NCBI GenBank assembly: GCA_001929475.1
Contig: LXFE01000132.1
Coordinates: 1 to 55,613 of the forward strand
Origin: Neolecta irregularis DAH-3
Lineage: Eukaryota
Direction: 5' to 3'
Length of the DNA: 55,613 bases
The notes under the pieces were generated by a model. It did not search any database. It worked only from the letters and a program-made list of their open reading frames with translations, and was not told the origin of the DNA. Positions 13,114-55,613 of this stretch are shown here, piece after piece; the first letter of the stretch is position 1, and each line of letters begins with the position of its first letter. The translations under genes and the position numbers were made by a program.

Positions 13114-15360
<2,247 letters not shown>

Positions 15361-15490
15361 GGGACGGGGTCTGGGAGTATTCTGAGCTTGCTAGGCATTG
15401 TTATAACATTTATTTGTGTACATGATGGTAATAGAAGAGATTGACTAGAGGTAGCTGGAGCAGATGGGAGCTAGCCGTCGTGGAGGACAG

Positions 15491-17262
15491 CTAGCCGTCG
15501 TGGAGAAGGACCGGCTTGAGGACGTGGGTGTCAAACTCTACGAACCAGCGGGCGCGGTGGTCGTCGTCGGCAGGAAGGGCGGGAGGCAGGCGGAGCGGGG
15601 CGGGCGGGAGATCCGAGTCCGAGTCGGAGGGCGAGTCTGGGTCCGAGGACGGGGCCGGGTGGACGATGCCGCGGGACAGGTCGATGCCGCGGGGGCTGTC
15701 CTCGTCGTCGACGACCTCGACGCCGGTGCGGATGCCGACGATGTCGAGCATGCGGGCGGTGGTGCCGCCAAAGACGATGACGGAGAGGACGACGACGACG
15801 AGGACGGTCGCGCGCAGGGTGCTTGCGTGCGGGCCCTGGATGCCCGCGGACAGCGCCACGCCGACGGCGCCGCGCAGGCCGGCCCAGAAGAGCATGATCT
15901 GGTAGGACTGCGGCAGGCGGTCGCGGCGCGCGAGGCGGTTGAGCAGGCGGGCGAGCGGGAACACGGCGGCATAGCGGGCGGCGACGACGGCGGCCACGGC
16001 CACGACGGTGAACAGCGGGCGGTACACAAAGTCGACCTGCGTGAACAGCGAGATGCCCAGGTAGATGAACACAAAGTTCTCCGACAGCCGCGCGAGCACC
16101 TGCAGCAGGCGGCGCACGGTGTGCTGCGCGCGGCGCGACATGTTGAGGTACGCATAGTGCTTCATCGTGATGCCGCAGAACAGCAGCGACACGATGCCTG
16201 GGTCAGCCAGCGCCTGTCTGTCTGGGGGGGGTACCCGACATGTGGCAGCCGTTGGAGAAAAAGTACGCCGCATACGCCAGCAGCACGACCAGACACGACT
16301 CGAGCTGCGGGTGCCGCCGCAGCTGCGTGTGCTTGAGCAGCAGCGCTGTGCCGATGCCCGCCGCGCAGCCGATCACCAGCGATCCGCAAAAGTTGAGCAC
16401 AAACACGCCCGCGCCCTCGACCGCACTCAGCGCATGCATCTGCGTGCCGTGGTACTGCTGCACCGTCCCGCCGTCAGCCCCAGCCGCCGGCAGCGCTCTA
16501 CGTACTCAAACATCACGATCGACACCGCGTCGTTCAGCAGCGACTCGCCAAAGATGATCGAGTACAGCTGCGGGTCCACCTGCCGCCAGTCAGCCCGCCC
16601 CCGCCCTGCTCGGAGAAGAAGAAGCCGCCTGCCTTGCACTGCGTAAAGATCGACAGCACCGTCACCGGGTCCGTCGCGCTCAAAGTCGCCCCCACGGACA
16701 TCGCGTCCAGGAACGACATCCGCACAGCCTCCAGCCCCGTCAGGCTCCACGCGTACACAATCGCCCCTATCACTATCGCAGAGATAAACGTCCCCAGCAG
16801 CGCAAACGTCAGGATCGTCCCGATGTTGCGGAAGAACAGCGCCTCCCCGTCAGCGGTGCCGTGCTGCACGTACCTGCCGCAGCTCAAACCCAGAATTCAG
16901 AATAATAGGCGGCAGCAGCAAATTGAAAAAGTACGAGTAGTGGAACGACACTTTCTCCTGGATCCGCAGCCCCGGCGACACCCGGATAATCAGCCCCACG
17001 ACCATGCCTGCCGTCAGCTCCCGCCCCCATCGCGCGCCCCGCACCCGCAAAGATAGACACCACGCTTTCGTGCACCGCCCGTATCTTGCGCCGCTGCAGG
17101 TAGTAGCTCGAGAATAGCGCAACAATAAGCAGTGCTACAAGAATGAAGAGCGCCCACGACGAATACAGCTCCTCAGTCACAGGATCAGACGGATCCTCAA
17201 TGTCGATCTCCGTTCCTAATGTGAGAAACGCACTGGGAACAGTCCATACTCTTGAATGGCAT
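15491..17262 (-). CDS. NHX1: Endosomal/prevacuolar Na+(K+)/H+ exchanger, 6 introns including one GC-AG and one GT-GG
   Basis: SSWALFIL, FFNLLLPPIILNSG, SATDPVTVL, IFGESLLNDAVSIV, SGIVSLLFCGI, LFWAGLRGAVGVAL. Confidence 0.93.
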
Positions 17263-17309
17263 GCTGTTGATCGGTGGGGTGCAGACCCTGAATCGTTGTA
17301 GAACGGTTC

Positions 17310-17317
17310 CACGTGAC
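17310..17317. promoter_or_regulatory. CACGTGAC E-box (Cbf1-type bHLH site) in NHX1/NDUFB3 divergent promoter
   Basis: Exact motif in a ~100-bp intergenic region; the same motif occurs at 20461-20468 and 26898-26905. Confidence 0.5.
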
Positions 17318-17364
17318 TTGTCTTGGTCCCATGCATCCGACACGCCGACACCGTGCATCACTAC

Positions 17365-17566
17365 ATGTCTATTCAAAATGACCCCTGGGCAAGACGGTAC
17401 ATCTCCCAGTATCAGTCCTAACCCAAGAAACGCATGGAGAACAAAACATTTATTCTCACCAGCATCGAGATTTAAAAGCGCGCTCCCGGGATTCGGAATC
17501 GCCTCTGGCCTATTTGCTATATACTGTCTCGTTGAATTCGTATCGTCGTATCGCAACCACGAGTGA
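17365..17566 (+). CDS. NADH:ubiquinone oxidoreductase B12 subunit (NDUFB3-like), one 31-nt intron (17397-17427)
   Basis: Spliced MSIQNDPWARRNAWRTKHLFSPASRFKSALPGFGIASGLFAIYCLVE. Confidence 0.88.
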
Positions 17567-17598
17567 ATTAAAGTAGAGCCAAGATAGATGTAGTCTTA

Positions 17599-18681
17599 TT
17601 ATATACTCTGCAACAACGCTTGTCTTTCACTTCGCGACGATATACTGCTCAAGTTGATCGCTCGAATTAATAGATCTGCTCTATACCTCCCATCTTGCTC
17701 GTCGTCACACCCGTCAGCCTTCTTCGCAATAAGATAAACGCCAGCAAACGTCGATAAACATCCTCCAATAAATAATTCCTTTTGATAGACATCGACCCTA
17801 GAAAACTCGTCGTATAGAATCCCGGAACCGACAATCACGCTCAGCGTGAACAGCACAAACTGGGTAGGCACAACAACCTGCTAATCAGCTACATCCCAAT
17901 ACACCTACCGTAGATTCGAACCGCGACAGTGCCCTGTTGAGAAACTTTACCTGAATCACCGCAGTAACAACCATCACCATCATCAAAACATAACTTATCC
18001 GATACGTAAACAGTAGATATGTTTGGCTTGAAAGCAGACAGGATAGCCCTTTGGTGGACAACACAGTAAACTGGCCAAAGATGGCTACAGTCCCCAAATC
18101 GAATAGCATATTCCGGTTCCCAACAAGACCAGACAACACTGCAAGAACCACACCGAAAAACAGCATAATCAAGGCGTATATAACGAACCCAGGAGACCGC
18201 AGTGCGGCAACAAGTTCATCTGGTCCAACCTGTCGTCAACATACGAAAAATGAACACTTGCCATTCGCTCCTCCCCACTGGACAGTACAATGACTACTGC
18301 ACCCAGACACGCAATTCCAACGCCAAACACCTGACGCGCTGAAATCGATTCATCCAATACTACAGGCGCAAATACCACGTTTGCAATCAACCCTGCAATA
18401 CCCAAAGGAGCCACTATCGACGCCTTTGTAAATCCGTATGCAACAAAGTTGCCCTACCGTCAATAACCACCCAACCACAAGAATACAATCTCGCCAATCA
18501 GCATAAGCAGAAATGCAAACCACCACGACATGGAAATATAGTACTGCCGACTAGATGCAAGATGAGACCGCCGCTGCAGCGTCAACGACAACGAGATGAC
18601 GATGTTTGACACAACGGCGATAAATATTCCGAGTAGAGTAAAGACAGATTGGTCCGCGCCCGTATCGGCCACGCGGTTCAT
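17599..18681 (-). CDS. NIPA-family magnesium transporter (3 introns, one GC-AG)
   Basis: WW..LLMLIGEIGNFVAYGF, APLG, FTVLSTKGLS, QVKFLNRALSRFEST.VVPTQFVLFT. Confidence 0.88.
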
Positions 18682-52320: not shown

Positions 52321-52955
52321 TTATGACTTCTTTTTCTCCGGCTCCAGTAGCTGAGTTAAGTGAAAATACACTCGCGGAGCTACCACTGTCCAACAAATGA
52401 CTCCGACCAAGATGATCAATCCGGCTACAGGCAGTAGGCTCTCAGGCATAACTCCGAGTATCAGTTTATCCAGAACTGCAAGAATAAGTGATATAGCGCA
52501 GACCAGGATACTTGCTCAATATGAACTCCATCTCTGGTACATTTGTCATCAAGTCTTCTATATGCGAGTAGTAAGTTGCCTCTGCAAATAAGCGGATGAA
52601 TAATATTTCATTCTCATAGAAAGTACTTAAACGAAAAGCTGTTGGCGACTTTCGAGGACCCAATCAGTCAATTTCTTTCTCTGCCGGGACCACTCACACT
52701 AGCTGCCCAGCAAACCCTTACTTCATACTTCGATCCCTCGACCAGGCCTACCAATCCGTATATCCTTTCGACTCCAAACGAGTCTTCCGAAGTCGAAAAA
52801 GCGGGTACGATAGTTTCTTGGAACCGAGGTTCATTAGGAGATAACCACGTTAATTTAGGAAATTTAAAATCTGACGTTTTCGGAGCCGTAAAGATCGTCT
52901 TTGCGGTATTCGCGTACACCTGTAAACAGAAAGCAAGCAGGGGAAATATCAGCAT
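52321..52955 (-). CDS. Pga1-like ER membrane protein (putative GPI mannosyltransferase II co-activator family), 2 introns
   Basis: Signal peptide then ANTAKTIF, KYEVRVCWAASSPTAF, ILDKLILGVMPESLL plus TM segment, KKKS C-terminus (ER-retrieval-like). Confidence 0.65.
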
Positions 52956-55233
52956 GATTTTCCAGGAAGACGTAGTAGCTGTGCAGCAGCTTATGGATAT
53001 GGGGTTCAAAAAGGATCAAGCTGTTCGAGCTTTAAAGGTATACCAAAGTGAACCAACACGCACTACTGACGATTCTGGAAAGCAAATAATGATGTTTCAA
53101 AGGCCTTTGATTATATTTTTAGTACAGATACAGACTTTCAGGTAATTTTCATTTTTCTAAAGTCTCTAAAGGGTCAATCTGTAGGACATTGATAACATTA
53201 ATACACTACAAGACTGGCCTTCTTCCACAAACGTCGTCGATTTGACTCAAGGCTTGTCCGGTTTATGAAGATAACTGATTGATCAGGCGAGGATGAAGAC
53301 ACTCGCTACGCGCGTCAATTGCAAGAAGAAGAAAATGCTAAAGGACGATCATCTGCATATAACGGCCAACAGATACGGCCACACAGTCATGAGGAAACAA
53401 AAGGCAGAAATACGACTATCTGCTCGGTTTCAAACATGCAAATAGTCCCTTATGGCCCTCGAGAATCCACACCAATCGTCGAGATATACAATGAGCCACC
53501 ACCCCATGAACGCATTCGCCAGCACGGAGCGTATGAGCATTCTAGGAAGCGGTCTTTTAACCCAAGGTCTGTGGTTATTCGCCCAAATTCAAGGTCTCAG
53601 ACAGACCGTAATGTCCTGTCGCCACTTATTCAAATTCTCTATACCATCCCACTATTTCGATCAGTTGTGCTATCCTTAAATCTTGTGTCTGAGCTGGAAG
53701 ACAGAGTGAAACTTCTTTTGGAAGAAGACGAACTTGATCAAGCGGATGATCGTAGTACTTTTCCGCTATGTAGTTCTCGCTTAATATTAGCTCATGCGAC
53801 CCAAGAACTCGTACTTGAATGGGTTCTTGCTGCTCTTCAGTATACCTTTGCGTCACTGGAACTTGGTAATCGTGCCTATGTTTCGGGCGAACCAATCCAA
53901 AAAGCCTTCTCCCTCTTCTCAATGACACAGAATGCTCCTTGTGGCGGAGGCGATTCAAGTATCAACGAACGATATTGATATGCTAATCTGAAAGCTATCA
54001 TAAATTTCTCTTCATTCTGGGACCAGCTTATGCGTACGTCTATAGACAGCAGCTGGTTTTCAGCTTCCCCGAGATACTTTAAGGGTATTTCTGTTGCTCA
54101 AATCGAACTCCTGGACAACATCAAAGGGTACATTTTGGGCATAACTTGCAACACTTAATACTCAATAGCTCATTATTCTCGACCCTAGTAACGCTACCGA
54201 ACAACCCAACATACGCCTACTTTGATATATCTGTTCGGTCGATTTCCGATGCATCAACCACACTTTACGACTACCTCGACAACATCGTTGGGAGCAAAAT
54301 CAGGGAAGGGGTCTATCCAGTTTCTTTTGCGCCCATTCTTATCATTGTTTTTCACAGTGCCGGCATTGGCACTGGAGTGTCATTGCCAGCAGAGATTGAC
54401 CTCGGCCGTTATTCCAAGGAAATGAGCAAGGTGATGGTAGAACGGTTGAAAAAAGCAGACAGTGTCCAGGCTCGTATTCCCGAATGTCAGGCAGATATTG
54501 ACAAACTTTCTTGGTTCAAGGTTTATAGTCTCATCTTCTAAGTTGGCAGCTAACAGCCTCAGACCTATTCAATTGCAGAATTATTAGCTGCTTCTCAAGC
54601 CTTTTTCAAATCTCATCCCCATTGTCACGAAAGTGATGAAAATCCTCTACCAGAAGACGGAGCTCCTATACTCGATCTGACGACAAAAATTGAGAATTTA
54701 CAGCTCCAAGTTTATAACAAGTTAGCGGAACTGAAAGACAAGAAGAAGGGGTTTGAAAGTGAAATTGAAAACTTGACAGATCTATCTACATTGCAGTCTG
54801 AAAAGGAATATAGGCCAAATAAGTATCACTTAAGCGGATTTCTGAAAACCCCTTCGGATGCATATTTTGATAATGACGGAAGATGGTGGCATACTGCTTT
54901 TTCGTCGAATTTCGGGTATACCTCCGAAGCAGTCTCATTCGAAAATTCAGTTAAGCTGGCGAAAGATGATGGAGAGATCATCGCTATCTTTGCTTCCAAT
55001 GTCGCTTGTGAGAAAGAATCTTCAAATATTGCTAGTAGTTTGAGATTGAAGGTTTGTTTCAGAGCAAGAAGTATCAGTCTGATTTCTCTAAGGAACTCAT
55101 CCTGGCTGAGAACGCCAAGTTTGATGAGGAAATTACACAAAATGGTGTTGTCAAGGATCAGAATCAGACTCAGAATGATGAGCATGCTATATCGGGTCCG
55201 ATCGAAGACAATGCAGAACCTGGATCTGTATGA
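52954..55233 (+). CDS. UBA-domain protein with SIM/UIM-like motifs and degenerate USP-like region (Rup1-like), 8 introns, first GT-GG
   Basis: QQLMDMGFKKDQAVRALKKANNDVSKAFDYIF (UBA), VVDLT, ARQLQEEE, LIQILYTIPLFR, YHLSG, GRWW. Confidence 0.7.
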
Positions 55234-55613
55234 AAATGAAATATACCTATAAAACATGAATCGAGTGTCAAAATTTCTAATTGTCTTCAATCCTCGTACA
55301 CTGAGATTCCAATATAAATTCAGTCACTTAAGCTAGGTATGGTATGTCCGCAGGAAGTTCAAGTCACTTAGTCTAGTATAATAAAACCTGGTCTTATTCG
55401 AACTTGAGTGTGAGTACTTGACCGGTCTGGTCTATACTCCGCTGAGCCTTAAGGTCGTATATAGTTGCAAGGGTTGTCAATAATGATAACCGTTGGTATT
55501 TAATATACAGTGTTAAGCCTAGCGCGCTAGCCGCGCTCGGCGCTACTTATATACCCGTTCTCGCGCGCCACCGTCCGGTTAATCGTCTGGCCCCTGTGGA
55601 ACATGATCCACAT

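What the first reader, a model, noticed from the sequence alone, without database searches (positions are those of the whole stretch)
53038..53078. UBA-domain gene intron with a GG acceptor despite an AG 4 nt downstream
AAG|gtatac...tactgacgattctgg|AAA GCA AAT AAT GAT GTT TCA AAG GCC TTT GAT TAT completes a UBA helix 2-3 pattern (ALKKANNDVSKAFDYI). The AG at 53081-53082 gives the wrong frame. If correct, a GG at the preferred branch distance outcompetes a nearby AG, which supports distance-based 3' site selection.
Basis: partly seen in the sequence, partly recalled or inferred. Interest (0 to 1): 0.7.

Follow-up and report, generated by a model that had tools for sequence, protein, structure and literature searches.

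The report
Fungal mini-intron spliced at TG
In a Neolecta fungus gene for a ubiquitin-binding protein, the one assembled transcript removes the first tiny intron at a TG, one base before the proposed GG and five before an unused AG, which leaves the message out of frame and most likely marks a recently damaged splice site.

Summary
The window is Neolecta irregularis DAH-3.

A spliced RNA-derived contig of the same organism (run X2) removes 40 bases, not 41 or 45. The only placement with a GT donor is 53038-53077, which is GT..TG. So a non-AG acceptor is used and the nearby AG is bypassed, but it is the TG one base upstream of the proposed GG.

The observed mRNA keeps one extra G and stops after 31 codons. 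The 41-base removal would give a 642-aa protein colinear with P0002.

My best reading (0.5) is a recently damaged acceptor (AG>GG, or an added G after a TG end), with splicing falling on the adjacent TG at the usual branch distance. The main rival (0.25) is that TG and GG are both used and contigs show only the commoner form.

TG is not a general acceptor here: it is not depleted between branch site and AG in 73 candidate introns, whereas AG is.

This scan had already noted TG-ending introns on other DNA of this genome. Raw junction read counts would decide.

The parts
52954..53037 (+). Exon 1 coding part: ATG to AAG, 28 codons, UBA helices 1-2
   Evidence: Pfam UBA E 5.9e-07. 13 of 15 aligned residues are identical to P0002. 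The RNA contig covers it with 0 differences.
53038..53077 (+). Intron 1 as removed in the RNA contig: 40 bases, GT..TG (the only placement with a GT donor)
   Evidence: joint 1 (skips 40, 2 ambiguous letters); sequence.
53064..53070 (+). Branch-site motif TACTGAC, branch A at 53069
   Evidence: Distances from the branch A are 8 to the TG end, 9 to the GG end and 13 to the AG end.
53077..53078 (+). A cut after 53078 is the only one with the 53038 donor that gives the ...ALK|KANNDV... join of relative P0002.
   Evidence: Not seen as a junction.
53081..53082 (+). Bypassed AG (a 45-base removal would give a 67-aa ORF)
53078..53141 (+). Exon 2 as in the RNA contig (64 bases). The conserved frame starts at 53079 (KANNDVSKAFDYIFSTDTDFQ, UBA helix 3).
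   Evidence: 19 of 21 residues are identical to P0002.
53142..53184 (+). Intron 2, 43 bases, GT..AG
   Evidence: joint 2 (cut +2).
53185..53251 (+). Exon 3
   Evidence: 16 of 23 identical to P0002.
53252..53286 (+). Intron 3, 35 bases, GC..AG
   Evidence: joint 3 (skips 35, 4 ambiguous letters; the placement at +2 is GC..AG); the join matches ...LTQ-x-EDEDTR... of P0002.
53287..55233 (+). Exons 4-10 with introns 4-9 (53531-53566, 53755-53790, 53959-53994, 54128-54168, 54521-54562, 55052-55092; all GT..AG, 36-42 bases); stop codon at 55231-55233
   Evidence: joints 4-9.
53048..53082 (+). Untaken canonical alternative: a 35-base GT..AG removal that would also keep the frame (loop ...ALK-VYQT-NNDV...)
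   Evidence: enumeration. Not seen, and it does not match P0002.

Best explanation
This is the first intron of a Neolecta irregularis gene for a UBA domain, followed by an acidic UIM-like stretch and a large USP25/28-like body.

In the only assembled transcript, intron 1 is removed as a 40-base GT..TG unit (53038-53077).

That join leaves one extra G. The observed mRNA therefore ends after 31 codons, whereas the conserved protein needs the cut one base later.

The most likely history is that the acceptor of this intron was recently damaged in this isolate. Either an A>G change at 53077 turned ...CTAG| into ...CTGG|, or one G was added after an older ...CTG| end. The second catalytic step then takes the nearest G-ending site at the normal branch distance (U tolerated at -2) instead of the more distant AG. 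The result is a mainly non-productive message, or a protein started further downstream without UBA.

Shown: the junction, the frames and the relative's protein. Inferred: the donor assignment, the mutational history and the reason TG wins.
For: -: one X2 contig (depth 61.6) carries 9 joints; 7 are GT..AG and 1 is GC..AG. Joint 1 skips 40 bases and has no AG-ending placement. The DNA run X1 shows 0 joints.
- ORF lengths are 31 aa (40-base removal), 642 aa (41-base) and 67 aa (45-base).
- P0002 is colinear with all the other joins and reads ALK|KANNDV. Its first 28 residues fill UBA profile positions 10-37.
- the TG lies 8 bases after the branch A, inside the 6-10 range of the gene's other introns. 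The AG lies at 13.
- 65 of 73 candidate introns have a distance of 11 or less.
- The TG has C at -3 and G at +1 and an AG 5 bases downstream. This is the context reported for human TG sites (PMC2374985, abstract and section 12).
- PMC5309816 (passages) states that DNA and RNA of fruiting bodies were sequenced.
- Earlier scan notes report TG-ending introns in other genes of this genome (not checked here).
Against: - Exons 1-2 are as conserved against P0002 as the rest (32 of 36 aligned residues against about 80% overall), and exons 1-4 stay open in the conserved frame. Any damage must therefore be very recent, or a productive minor isoform exists.
- The RNA evidence is one assembled contig. Contigs drop minor variants, so a GG-joined or other in-frame form cannot be excluded.
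- TG is not generally used in this genome. In 73 candidate GT-AG introns, TG occurs in the zone between branch site and AG at the control rate (17 of 263 positions against 108 of 1797), while AG is depleted (1 against 75). Why this TG wins is not explained by position alone.
- No DNA of a relative could be obtained, so the ancestral acceptor is unknown.
Confidence: 0.5

Rival explanations
1. Wobble between two adjacent non-AG acceptors: the spliceosome cuts after either TG (53077) or GG (53078). The GG-joined minority mRNA makes the full UBA protein, and the TG-joined form is a by-product.
For: The conserved frame needs exactly the GG cut. The N-terminal exons show no decay. Contigs show only the commoner path (text). 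GT-GG junctions exist at low frequency in another fungus (38 of about 92,000 in Ganoderma lingzhi; PMC11590231, Table 1 passage).
Against: No GG-joined contig was seen. The assembled, hence commoner, form is the out-of-frame one. An earlier-notes search for GG acceptors in this scan found nothing.
Confidence: 0.25
2. A canonical minor isoform is the productive one. The donor GT at 53048 pairs with the AG at 53082 (35 bases, a typical size here), giving a UBA loop two residues longer. The TG join is noise.
For:: this GT..AG removal keeps the frame. A 35-base length is typical of the gene's introns.
Against: It is not seen in the contig. It replaces the KA of the conserved KKANNDV, which is intact in the DNA and present in P0002. 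The branch-to-AG distance of 13 is in the tail.
Confidence: 0.07
3. Off-by-one artefact or mixed alleles: the contig or its laying is wrong by one base, or the fruiting body carried two alleles (one with an intact acceptor) and both assemblies picked the same one.
For: Evidence rests on a single contig. The material was field-collected (PMC5309816 passages). Contigs hide variants (text).
Against: The tool's coordinates, the 2 ambiguous letters, the side length of 63 and the 130 record letters between flanking pieces all agree on 40. A junction 31-mer with the extra G cannot arise from mixing spliced 41-type reads with unspliced reads.
Confidence: 0.08
4. The 40-base join is the normal message, and the ribosome shifts +1 at the AAA-TAA that ends the 31-codon frame. 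This would give a UBA of the same length with three changed loop residues.
For: The zero-frame stop directly follows an AAA. The +1 frame is open only from the junction onward, so a shift there would give a same-length product (reasoning from the sequence). The resemblance of the AAA-stop pattern to Euplotes +1 sites is recalled, not tested.
Against: No tool result supports it. Such shifting is not known as a general fungal mechanism (recalled). The relative's protein is encoded in frame.
Confidence: 0.03
5. The AG at 53081-82 is the real acceptor and exon 1 is non-coding.
For: AG is the near-universal acceptor. The public model NEOLI_000749 starts downstream at MQIVPYGP.
Against: The RNA contig does not use it. 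Exon 1 is a conserved UBA half.
Confidence: 0.03

Closest known systems
TG 3' splice sites in TG-AG tandems of human U2-type introns (Szafranski et al. 2007, PMC2374985; abstract and section 12 read)
   Same: GT donor, an intron ending in TG, an AG close by (here 5 bases; the human limit is 28), pyrimidine at -3 and purine at +1.
   Different: In human the TG is always one of two used sites and never the sole one. Here only the TG form is seen in contigs, the intron is 40 bases with the branch A 8 bases away, and the TG join breaks the frame.
Cryptic 3' splice-site activation after mutation of the acceptor AG (human disease genetics; recalled, no call)
   Same: On my best reading, a damaged acceptor is replaced by a neighbouring site, giving a frameshifted mRNA.
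   Different: In PMC2374985 section 12, human AG>TG mutants activated neighbouring AGs, not TG. Here a TG is taken in preference to a nearby AG.
Tandem (NAGNAG-type) acceptors giving small shifts of the cut (recalled)
   Same: Closely spaced alternative 3' cuts behind one branch site.
   Different: The sites here are TG, GG and AG at 1- and 4-base spacing, none in frame with another, and only one is seen.
Short fungal introns with a 3' site close to the branch point and first-AG choice beyond a minimal distance (S. pombe, S. cerevisiae; recalled)
   Same: Mini-introns of 35-43 bases. The 3' site lies 6-10 bases after the branch A. AG or TG at 3-4 bases is skipped. AG is excluded from the zone in between.
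   Different: The chosen site in intron 1 is not an AG.
Rare GT-GG and GT-TG junctions in fungal long-read annotations (Ganoderma lingzhi, PMC11590231, Table 1 passage; S. pombe meiosis, bioRxiv 10.1101/045922, one passage)
   Same: Non-AG ends occur at roughly 0.02-0.04% of junctions, or as presumed aberrant forms.
   Different: Those are genome-wide tallies. Here a single intron's main assembled form is non-AG.

Membership tests
U2-type GT-TG intron (TG 3' splice site, TG-AG tandem) | Transcript evidence for a junction whose removed part ends in TG | tested here: met
   joint 1. Of the three equivalent placements, only 53038-53077 has a GT start, and it ends in TG.
U2-type GT-TG intron (TG 3' splice site, TG-AG tandem) | Ordinary U2-type donor and branch site | tested here: met
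   The donor GTATAC resembles the gene's other donors. The CTGAC branch motif lies 8 bases from the cut.
U2-type GT-TG intron (TG 3' splice site, TG-AG tandem) | An AG acceptor within 28 bases of the TG | tested here: met
   AG at 53081-82, 5 bases downstream. Criterion taken from PMC2374985 section 12.
U2-type GT-TG intron (TG 3' splice site, TG-AG tandem) | TG used as an alternative alongside the AG form | tested here: inconclusive
   Only the TG form is in the contigs. Contigs cannot show minor forms.
   One search shows 40 bases removed. A minor 41-base form is not excluded.
UBA domain (Pfam PF00627) | Continuous match to the 37-position profile | tested here: inconclusive
   Exon 1 covers positions 5-23 (E 5.9e-07). 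Relative P0002 covers 10-37 continuously (E 6.6e-07). In this window continuity needs the 41-base removal, which the RNA contig does not show.
UBA-UIM-USP25/28-like 'ubiquitin interaction motif protein' of Ascomycota | Sequence or feature similarity of the body of the protein | tested here: inconclusive
   Atlas feature hits score 0.92 to clusters auto-named USP28 fragment, UBA domain-containing protein and ubiquitin interaction motif protein (a lead only). There is no Pfam hit on the body. Only two sequence relatives were found.
Programmed +1 ribosomal frameshift | Shift site conserved in relatives and a shifted protein product | not testable with these tools
   The relative's protein is in frame. 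No proteomic data are available.

The most novel reading that the evidence does not exclude
In Neolecta's 35-45-base introns, the second splicing step needs little more than a G at the right distance (about 6-10 bases) behind the branch A. At this intron both ...CTG| and ...CTGG| would then be cut, and the full UBA protein would be made from a GG-ending intron while an AG five bases away is ignored. That would be a natural case of position outranking the AG rule.
Probability: 0.2. Interest if true: 0.7.

Novelty: new member of a known kind. Interest (0 to 1): 0.4.

Why it matters
This is transcript-level evidence that a fungal spliceosome cut a mini-intron at a non-AG site while an AG lay five bases downstream. 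In human, TG sites are only ever alternatives to an AG.

Because the cut is one base off the conserved frame, the locus behaves like a natural mutation experiment on 3' site choice. It suggests that position behind the branch point and tolerance of U at -2 can outweigh AG identity. If raw reads also show the GG join, the case becomes much stronger.

In practice, the public gene model (NEOLI_000749) misses exons 1-3 (the UBA and the acidic motif) and keeps a 36-base intron as coding sequence. AG-only gene callers therefore mis-annotate this genome.

Tried and rejected
- Whole genome: none is held for this window. Spliceosome factors and genome-wide intron statistics could therefore not be examined.
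- Rfam and tRNA scans of the window found nothing.
- RNA runs: no holder is listed as RNA. X2 is labelled 'DNA?' but its contig is spliced, so I treat it as RNA-derived. Only contigs were available, not raw reads, so isoform ratios cannot be given.
- DNA of the relative: a scan of metagenome contigs with P0002 matched 79 pattern stretches, but none encoded a relative. The second scan was not used, because two of the patterns already tried (NFSSFWDQ and most of PNMQIVPY) are also encoded in this window.
- More relatives: three word-index searches and one full HMMER search found only P0001, P0002 and one weak hit, P0003 (E 6.3e-05).
- A general rule that the first AG or TG at least 5 bases after the branch A is used fits the 9 introns of this gene. 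I rejected it as a general rule because TG is not depleted in that zone in 73 candidate introns. Several plausible introns have a TG at 6-8 bases upstream of the frame-keeping AG. That candidate set is ORF-based, contains false positives, and recovered only 3 of 7 known GT-AG introns of this gene.
- Counting ORF-required candidate introns for all 16 end dinucleotides gave AG 68 clusters, TG 25, GG 17 and other ends 12-25. The background is too high to say whether TG ends are enriched.
- Other frame-keeping removals: 53048-53082 (GT..AG, 35 bases) and 53038-53102 (GT..AG, 65 bases, which deletes KANNDVSK). Neither is seen and neither matches P0002.
- Literature: 'Neolecta'+'intron' (33 papers, 15 listed), 'Neolecta irregularis'+'genome' (33 papers, 12 listed) and 'GT-TG'+'intron'+'fung' (7 papers). 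None of the listed titles or abstract starts deals with non-AG splicing in Neolecta. The main text of PMC5309816 has no occurrence of intron, splic or RNA-seq. Its Supplementary Methods were not opened and may describe the RNA data.

Full report
**What the window is.** A homology search with the large exon at 53286-53960 returns NEOLI_000749 of Neolecta irregularis DAH-3 on a 55,613-base contig (P0001, 533 aa). It also returns one unnamed relative, P0002 (631 aa, source jgi, on a 2,599-base contig). No whole genome is held for the window. Rfam and tRNA scans of the window are empty.

**The observation.**
- An ATG at 52954 opens 28 codons that end with AAG at 53035-37.
- GT follows at 53038.
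- TACTGAC lies at 53064-70, with the branch A at 53069.
- The stretch ends ...TTCTGG at 53078.
- An AG lies at 53081-82.

Exon 1 alone matches Pfam UBA (E 5.9e-07, profile positions 5-23 of 37). P0002 begins MDMGFKRDQAIRALKKANNDVSKAFDYIF. Its residues 1-28 fill UBA profile positions 10-37 (E 6.6e-07) and hit the UBA domains of USP13 and USP5 among solved structures. The conserved protein therefore joins ALK directly to KANNDV, which in this DNA requires removing exactly 53038-53078 (41 bases, GT..GG).

**What the RNA shows.** Two runs hold the locus. I laid both on 52700-55400.
- X1 is the likely DNA source. It covers the stretch without any joint.
- X2 gives one contig (record 9, 4,318 letters, depth 61.6) that matches the exons with 0 differences and carries 9 joints. 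It is therefore RNA-derived.
- The genome paper says that DNA and RNA of fruiting bodies were sequenced (PMC5309816, passages).

The joints fall as follows.
- Seven of the nine are GT..AG (43, 36, 36, 36, 41, 42 and 41 bases).
- Joint 3 (35 bases, 4 ambiguous letters) is GC..AG when placed at 53252-53286.
- Joint 1 runs from 53036 to 53077. It skips 40 bases with 2 ambiguous letters, so the removed part is 53037-76 (GG..CT), 53038-77 (GT..TG) or 53039-78 (TA..GG).

The arithmetic of the record supports 40 rather than 41. There are 130 record letters between the pieces ending at 53036 and starting at 53285, and these equal the 63 + 67 letters of the two short exon pieces. A junction word with the extra G cannot be produced by mixing unspliced reads with 41-type reads. 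With the only plausible donor, the intron is 53038-53077: GT..TG, cut after CTG.

**Consequences for the frame.** All three variants below use the other eight RNA-supported introns.

| Removal | ORF |
|---|---|
| 40 bases (observed) | 31 codons (...ALKESK, then stop) |
| 45 bases (AG) | 67 aa |

The 642-aa product is colinear with P0002 at every other junction. Identity by exon is 13/15, 19/21, 16/23, 68/79, 53/62, 47/56, 37/44, 95/117, 122/163 and 30/44. The N-terminal exons are thus as conserved as the rest, yet the assembled mRNA is one base out of frame with them.

I enumerated all frame-keeping removals around the site. With the 53038 donor, only the GG cut reproduces the relative's join. 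Two canonical GT..AG options also keep the frame: 53048-53082 (35 bases, loop two residues longer) and 53038-53102 (65 bases, deletes eight residues). Neither is seen in the contig and neither matches P0002.

**How the 3' site might be chosen.** Eight of the gene's nine introns have a YTRAY motif. In these, the used 3' end lies 8, 8, 6, 6, 8, 10, 9 and 10 bases after the branch A. AG or TG at 3-4 bases is skipped, and no G at all lies between 5 bases and the used end. In intron 1 the TG is at 8, the GG at 9 and the AG at 13.

To test a general rule that the first AG or TG wins, I collected ORF-required GT..AG candidate introns across the window. There were 147 candidates in 84 clusters, of which 73 have a single acceptor.
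- Their branch-to-AG distances are 11 or less in 65 of 73, and 13-14 in 6 of 73.
- AG is strongly depleted between branch site and acceptor: 1 in 263 positions, against 75 in 1,797 control positions.
- TG is not depleted: 17 in 263, against 108 in 1,797.
- Several plausible introns carry a TG 6-8 bases after the branch A yet need the downstream AG.

This set is imperfect. It recovered 3 of 7 known GT-AG introns of this gene, and ends other than AG give 12-25 clusters of background against 68 for AG. Even so, the contrast between AG and TG argues that TG is not a generally competent acceptor here. Distance makes the AG at 13 less favoured, but it does not by itself explain why this TG is used.

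**Best explanation (0.5).** The acceptor of intron 1 was recently damaged in this isolate. One base change is enough: A>G at 53077 turning ...CTAG| into ...CTGG|, or one G added behind an older ...CTG| end. The second step then takes the adjacent CTG| at almost the original distance rather than jumping to the AAG| five bases on. This fits four things.
- The conserved join in P0002.
- The intact but out-of-frame N-terminal exons.
- The context of functional TG sites in human introns: pyrimidine at -3, purine at +1 and an AG within 28 bases (PMC2374985, abstract and section 12).
- Earlier notes of this scan that report TG-ending introns in TERT, EGT1, RSM23 and P450 genes of the same genome. These are leads that I did not check.

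It differs from the human picture in two ways. There, AG>TG mutants activate neighbouring AGs, and TG is never the only form.

**Rivals.**
- TG and GG are both cut, and the GG form is a productive minority (0.25).
- The canonical 35-base intron 53048-53082 is a productive minority (0.07).
- An off-by-one artefact, or two alleles in the field-collected fruiting body (0.08).
- A +1 ribosomal shift at the AAA-TAA that closes the 31-codon frame, which would give a UBA of the same length (0.03).
- AG use with a non-coding exon 1 (0.03, contradicted).

Contigs cannot show minor isoforms, so the first three stay open until raw reads are counted.

**The gene.** An N-terminal UBA is followed by an acidic EDEDTRYARQLQEEE stretch that looks UIM-like by eye, with no Pfam hit. 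The body of about 500 residues has no Pfam family. Its language-model features are closest to Ascomycota clusters auto-named USP28 fragment, UBA domain-containing protein and ubiquitin interaction motif protein (score 0.92; a lead only). Sequence searches find only P0001 and P0002, plus one weak hit.

**Known or new.** GT-TG and GT-GG junctions are tallied at about 0.02-0.04% in Ganoderma lingzhi (PMC11590231, passages). They appear as presumed aberrant forms in S. pombe (bioRxiv 10.1101/045922, one passage). My searches listed no paper on non-AG splicing in Neolecta; I saw listings and abstract starts only. This locus is a further, RNA-supported member of the TG-acceptor kind. Its twist is that the TG cut is unproductive and sits next to the frame-keeping GG.

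**Verdict.** Interest is 0.4.

Noticed in passing
window 53252-53286: Intron 3 of the same gene is a 35-base GC..AG intron supported by the RNA contig. It is one of the nine introns in this gene.
   Followed up: partly
window 52954-53566 (public model P0001 / NEOLI_000749): The public protein starts at MQIVPYGP and so lacks exons 1-3 and the start of exon 4 (UBA and the acidic motif). It also reads the 36-base intron 4 (53531-53566) as coding, whereas the RNA contig removes it and P0002 lacks those residues.
   Followed up: yes
window 52953-52956 and minus strand 52955 downwards to about 52320: A minus-strand ORF begins with a signal-peptide-like MLIFPLLAFCLQVYA. Its ATG (52955-52953) overlaps the plus-strand ATG (52954-56) in a CATG palindrome. 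This would place two divergent genes start to start with overlapping 5' ends. The RNA contig runs unbroken through the region and 2,031 letters further upstream. Pfam gives only a weak fn3 hit (E 0.02).
   Followed up: partly
window 55355-55400: Depth in the DNA run jumps from 445 to about 3,700, and many contigs with loose ends start here. A repeated element seems to begin near the 3' end of the gene.
   Followed up: no
window 14000-18000: A G+C-rich stretch (0.56-0.58 against about 0.42-0.47 elsewhere) has long overlapping open frames on both strands (for example 15455-16336 + and 15491-16372 -). It lies downstream of a PAK-type kinase gene (PBD and kinase domains at 13541-14848).
   Followed up: no
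window, whole: Gene content by Pfam on long ORFs: class II tRNA synthetase, Brix, cyclin, WD40, PAK kinase, proteasomal ATPase, aspartyl protease, DCP1, MFS transporter, inositol 5-phosphatase, an ABC transporter with TMD0, Kae1/TsaD and a CN hydrolase.
   Followed up: no
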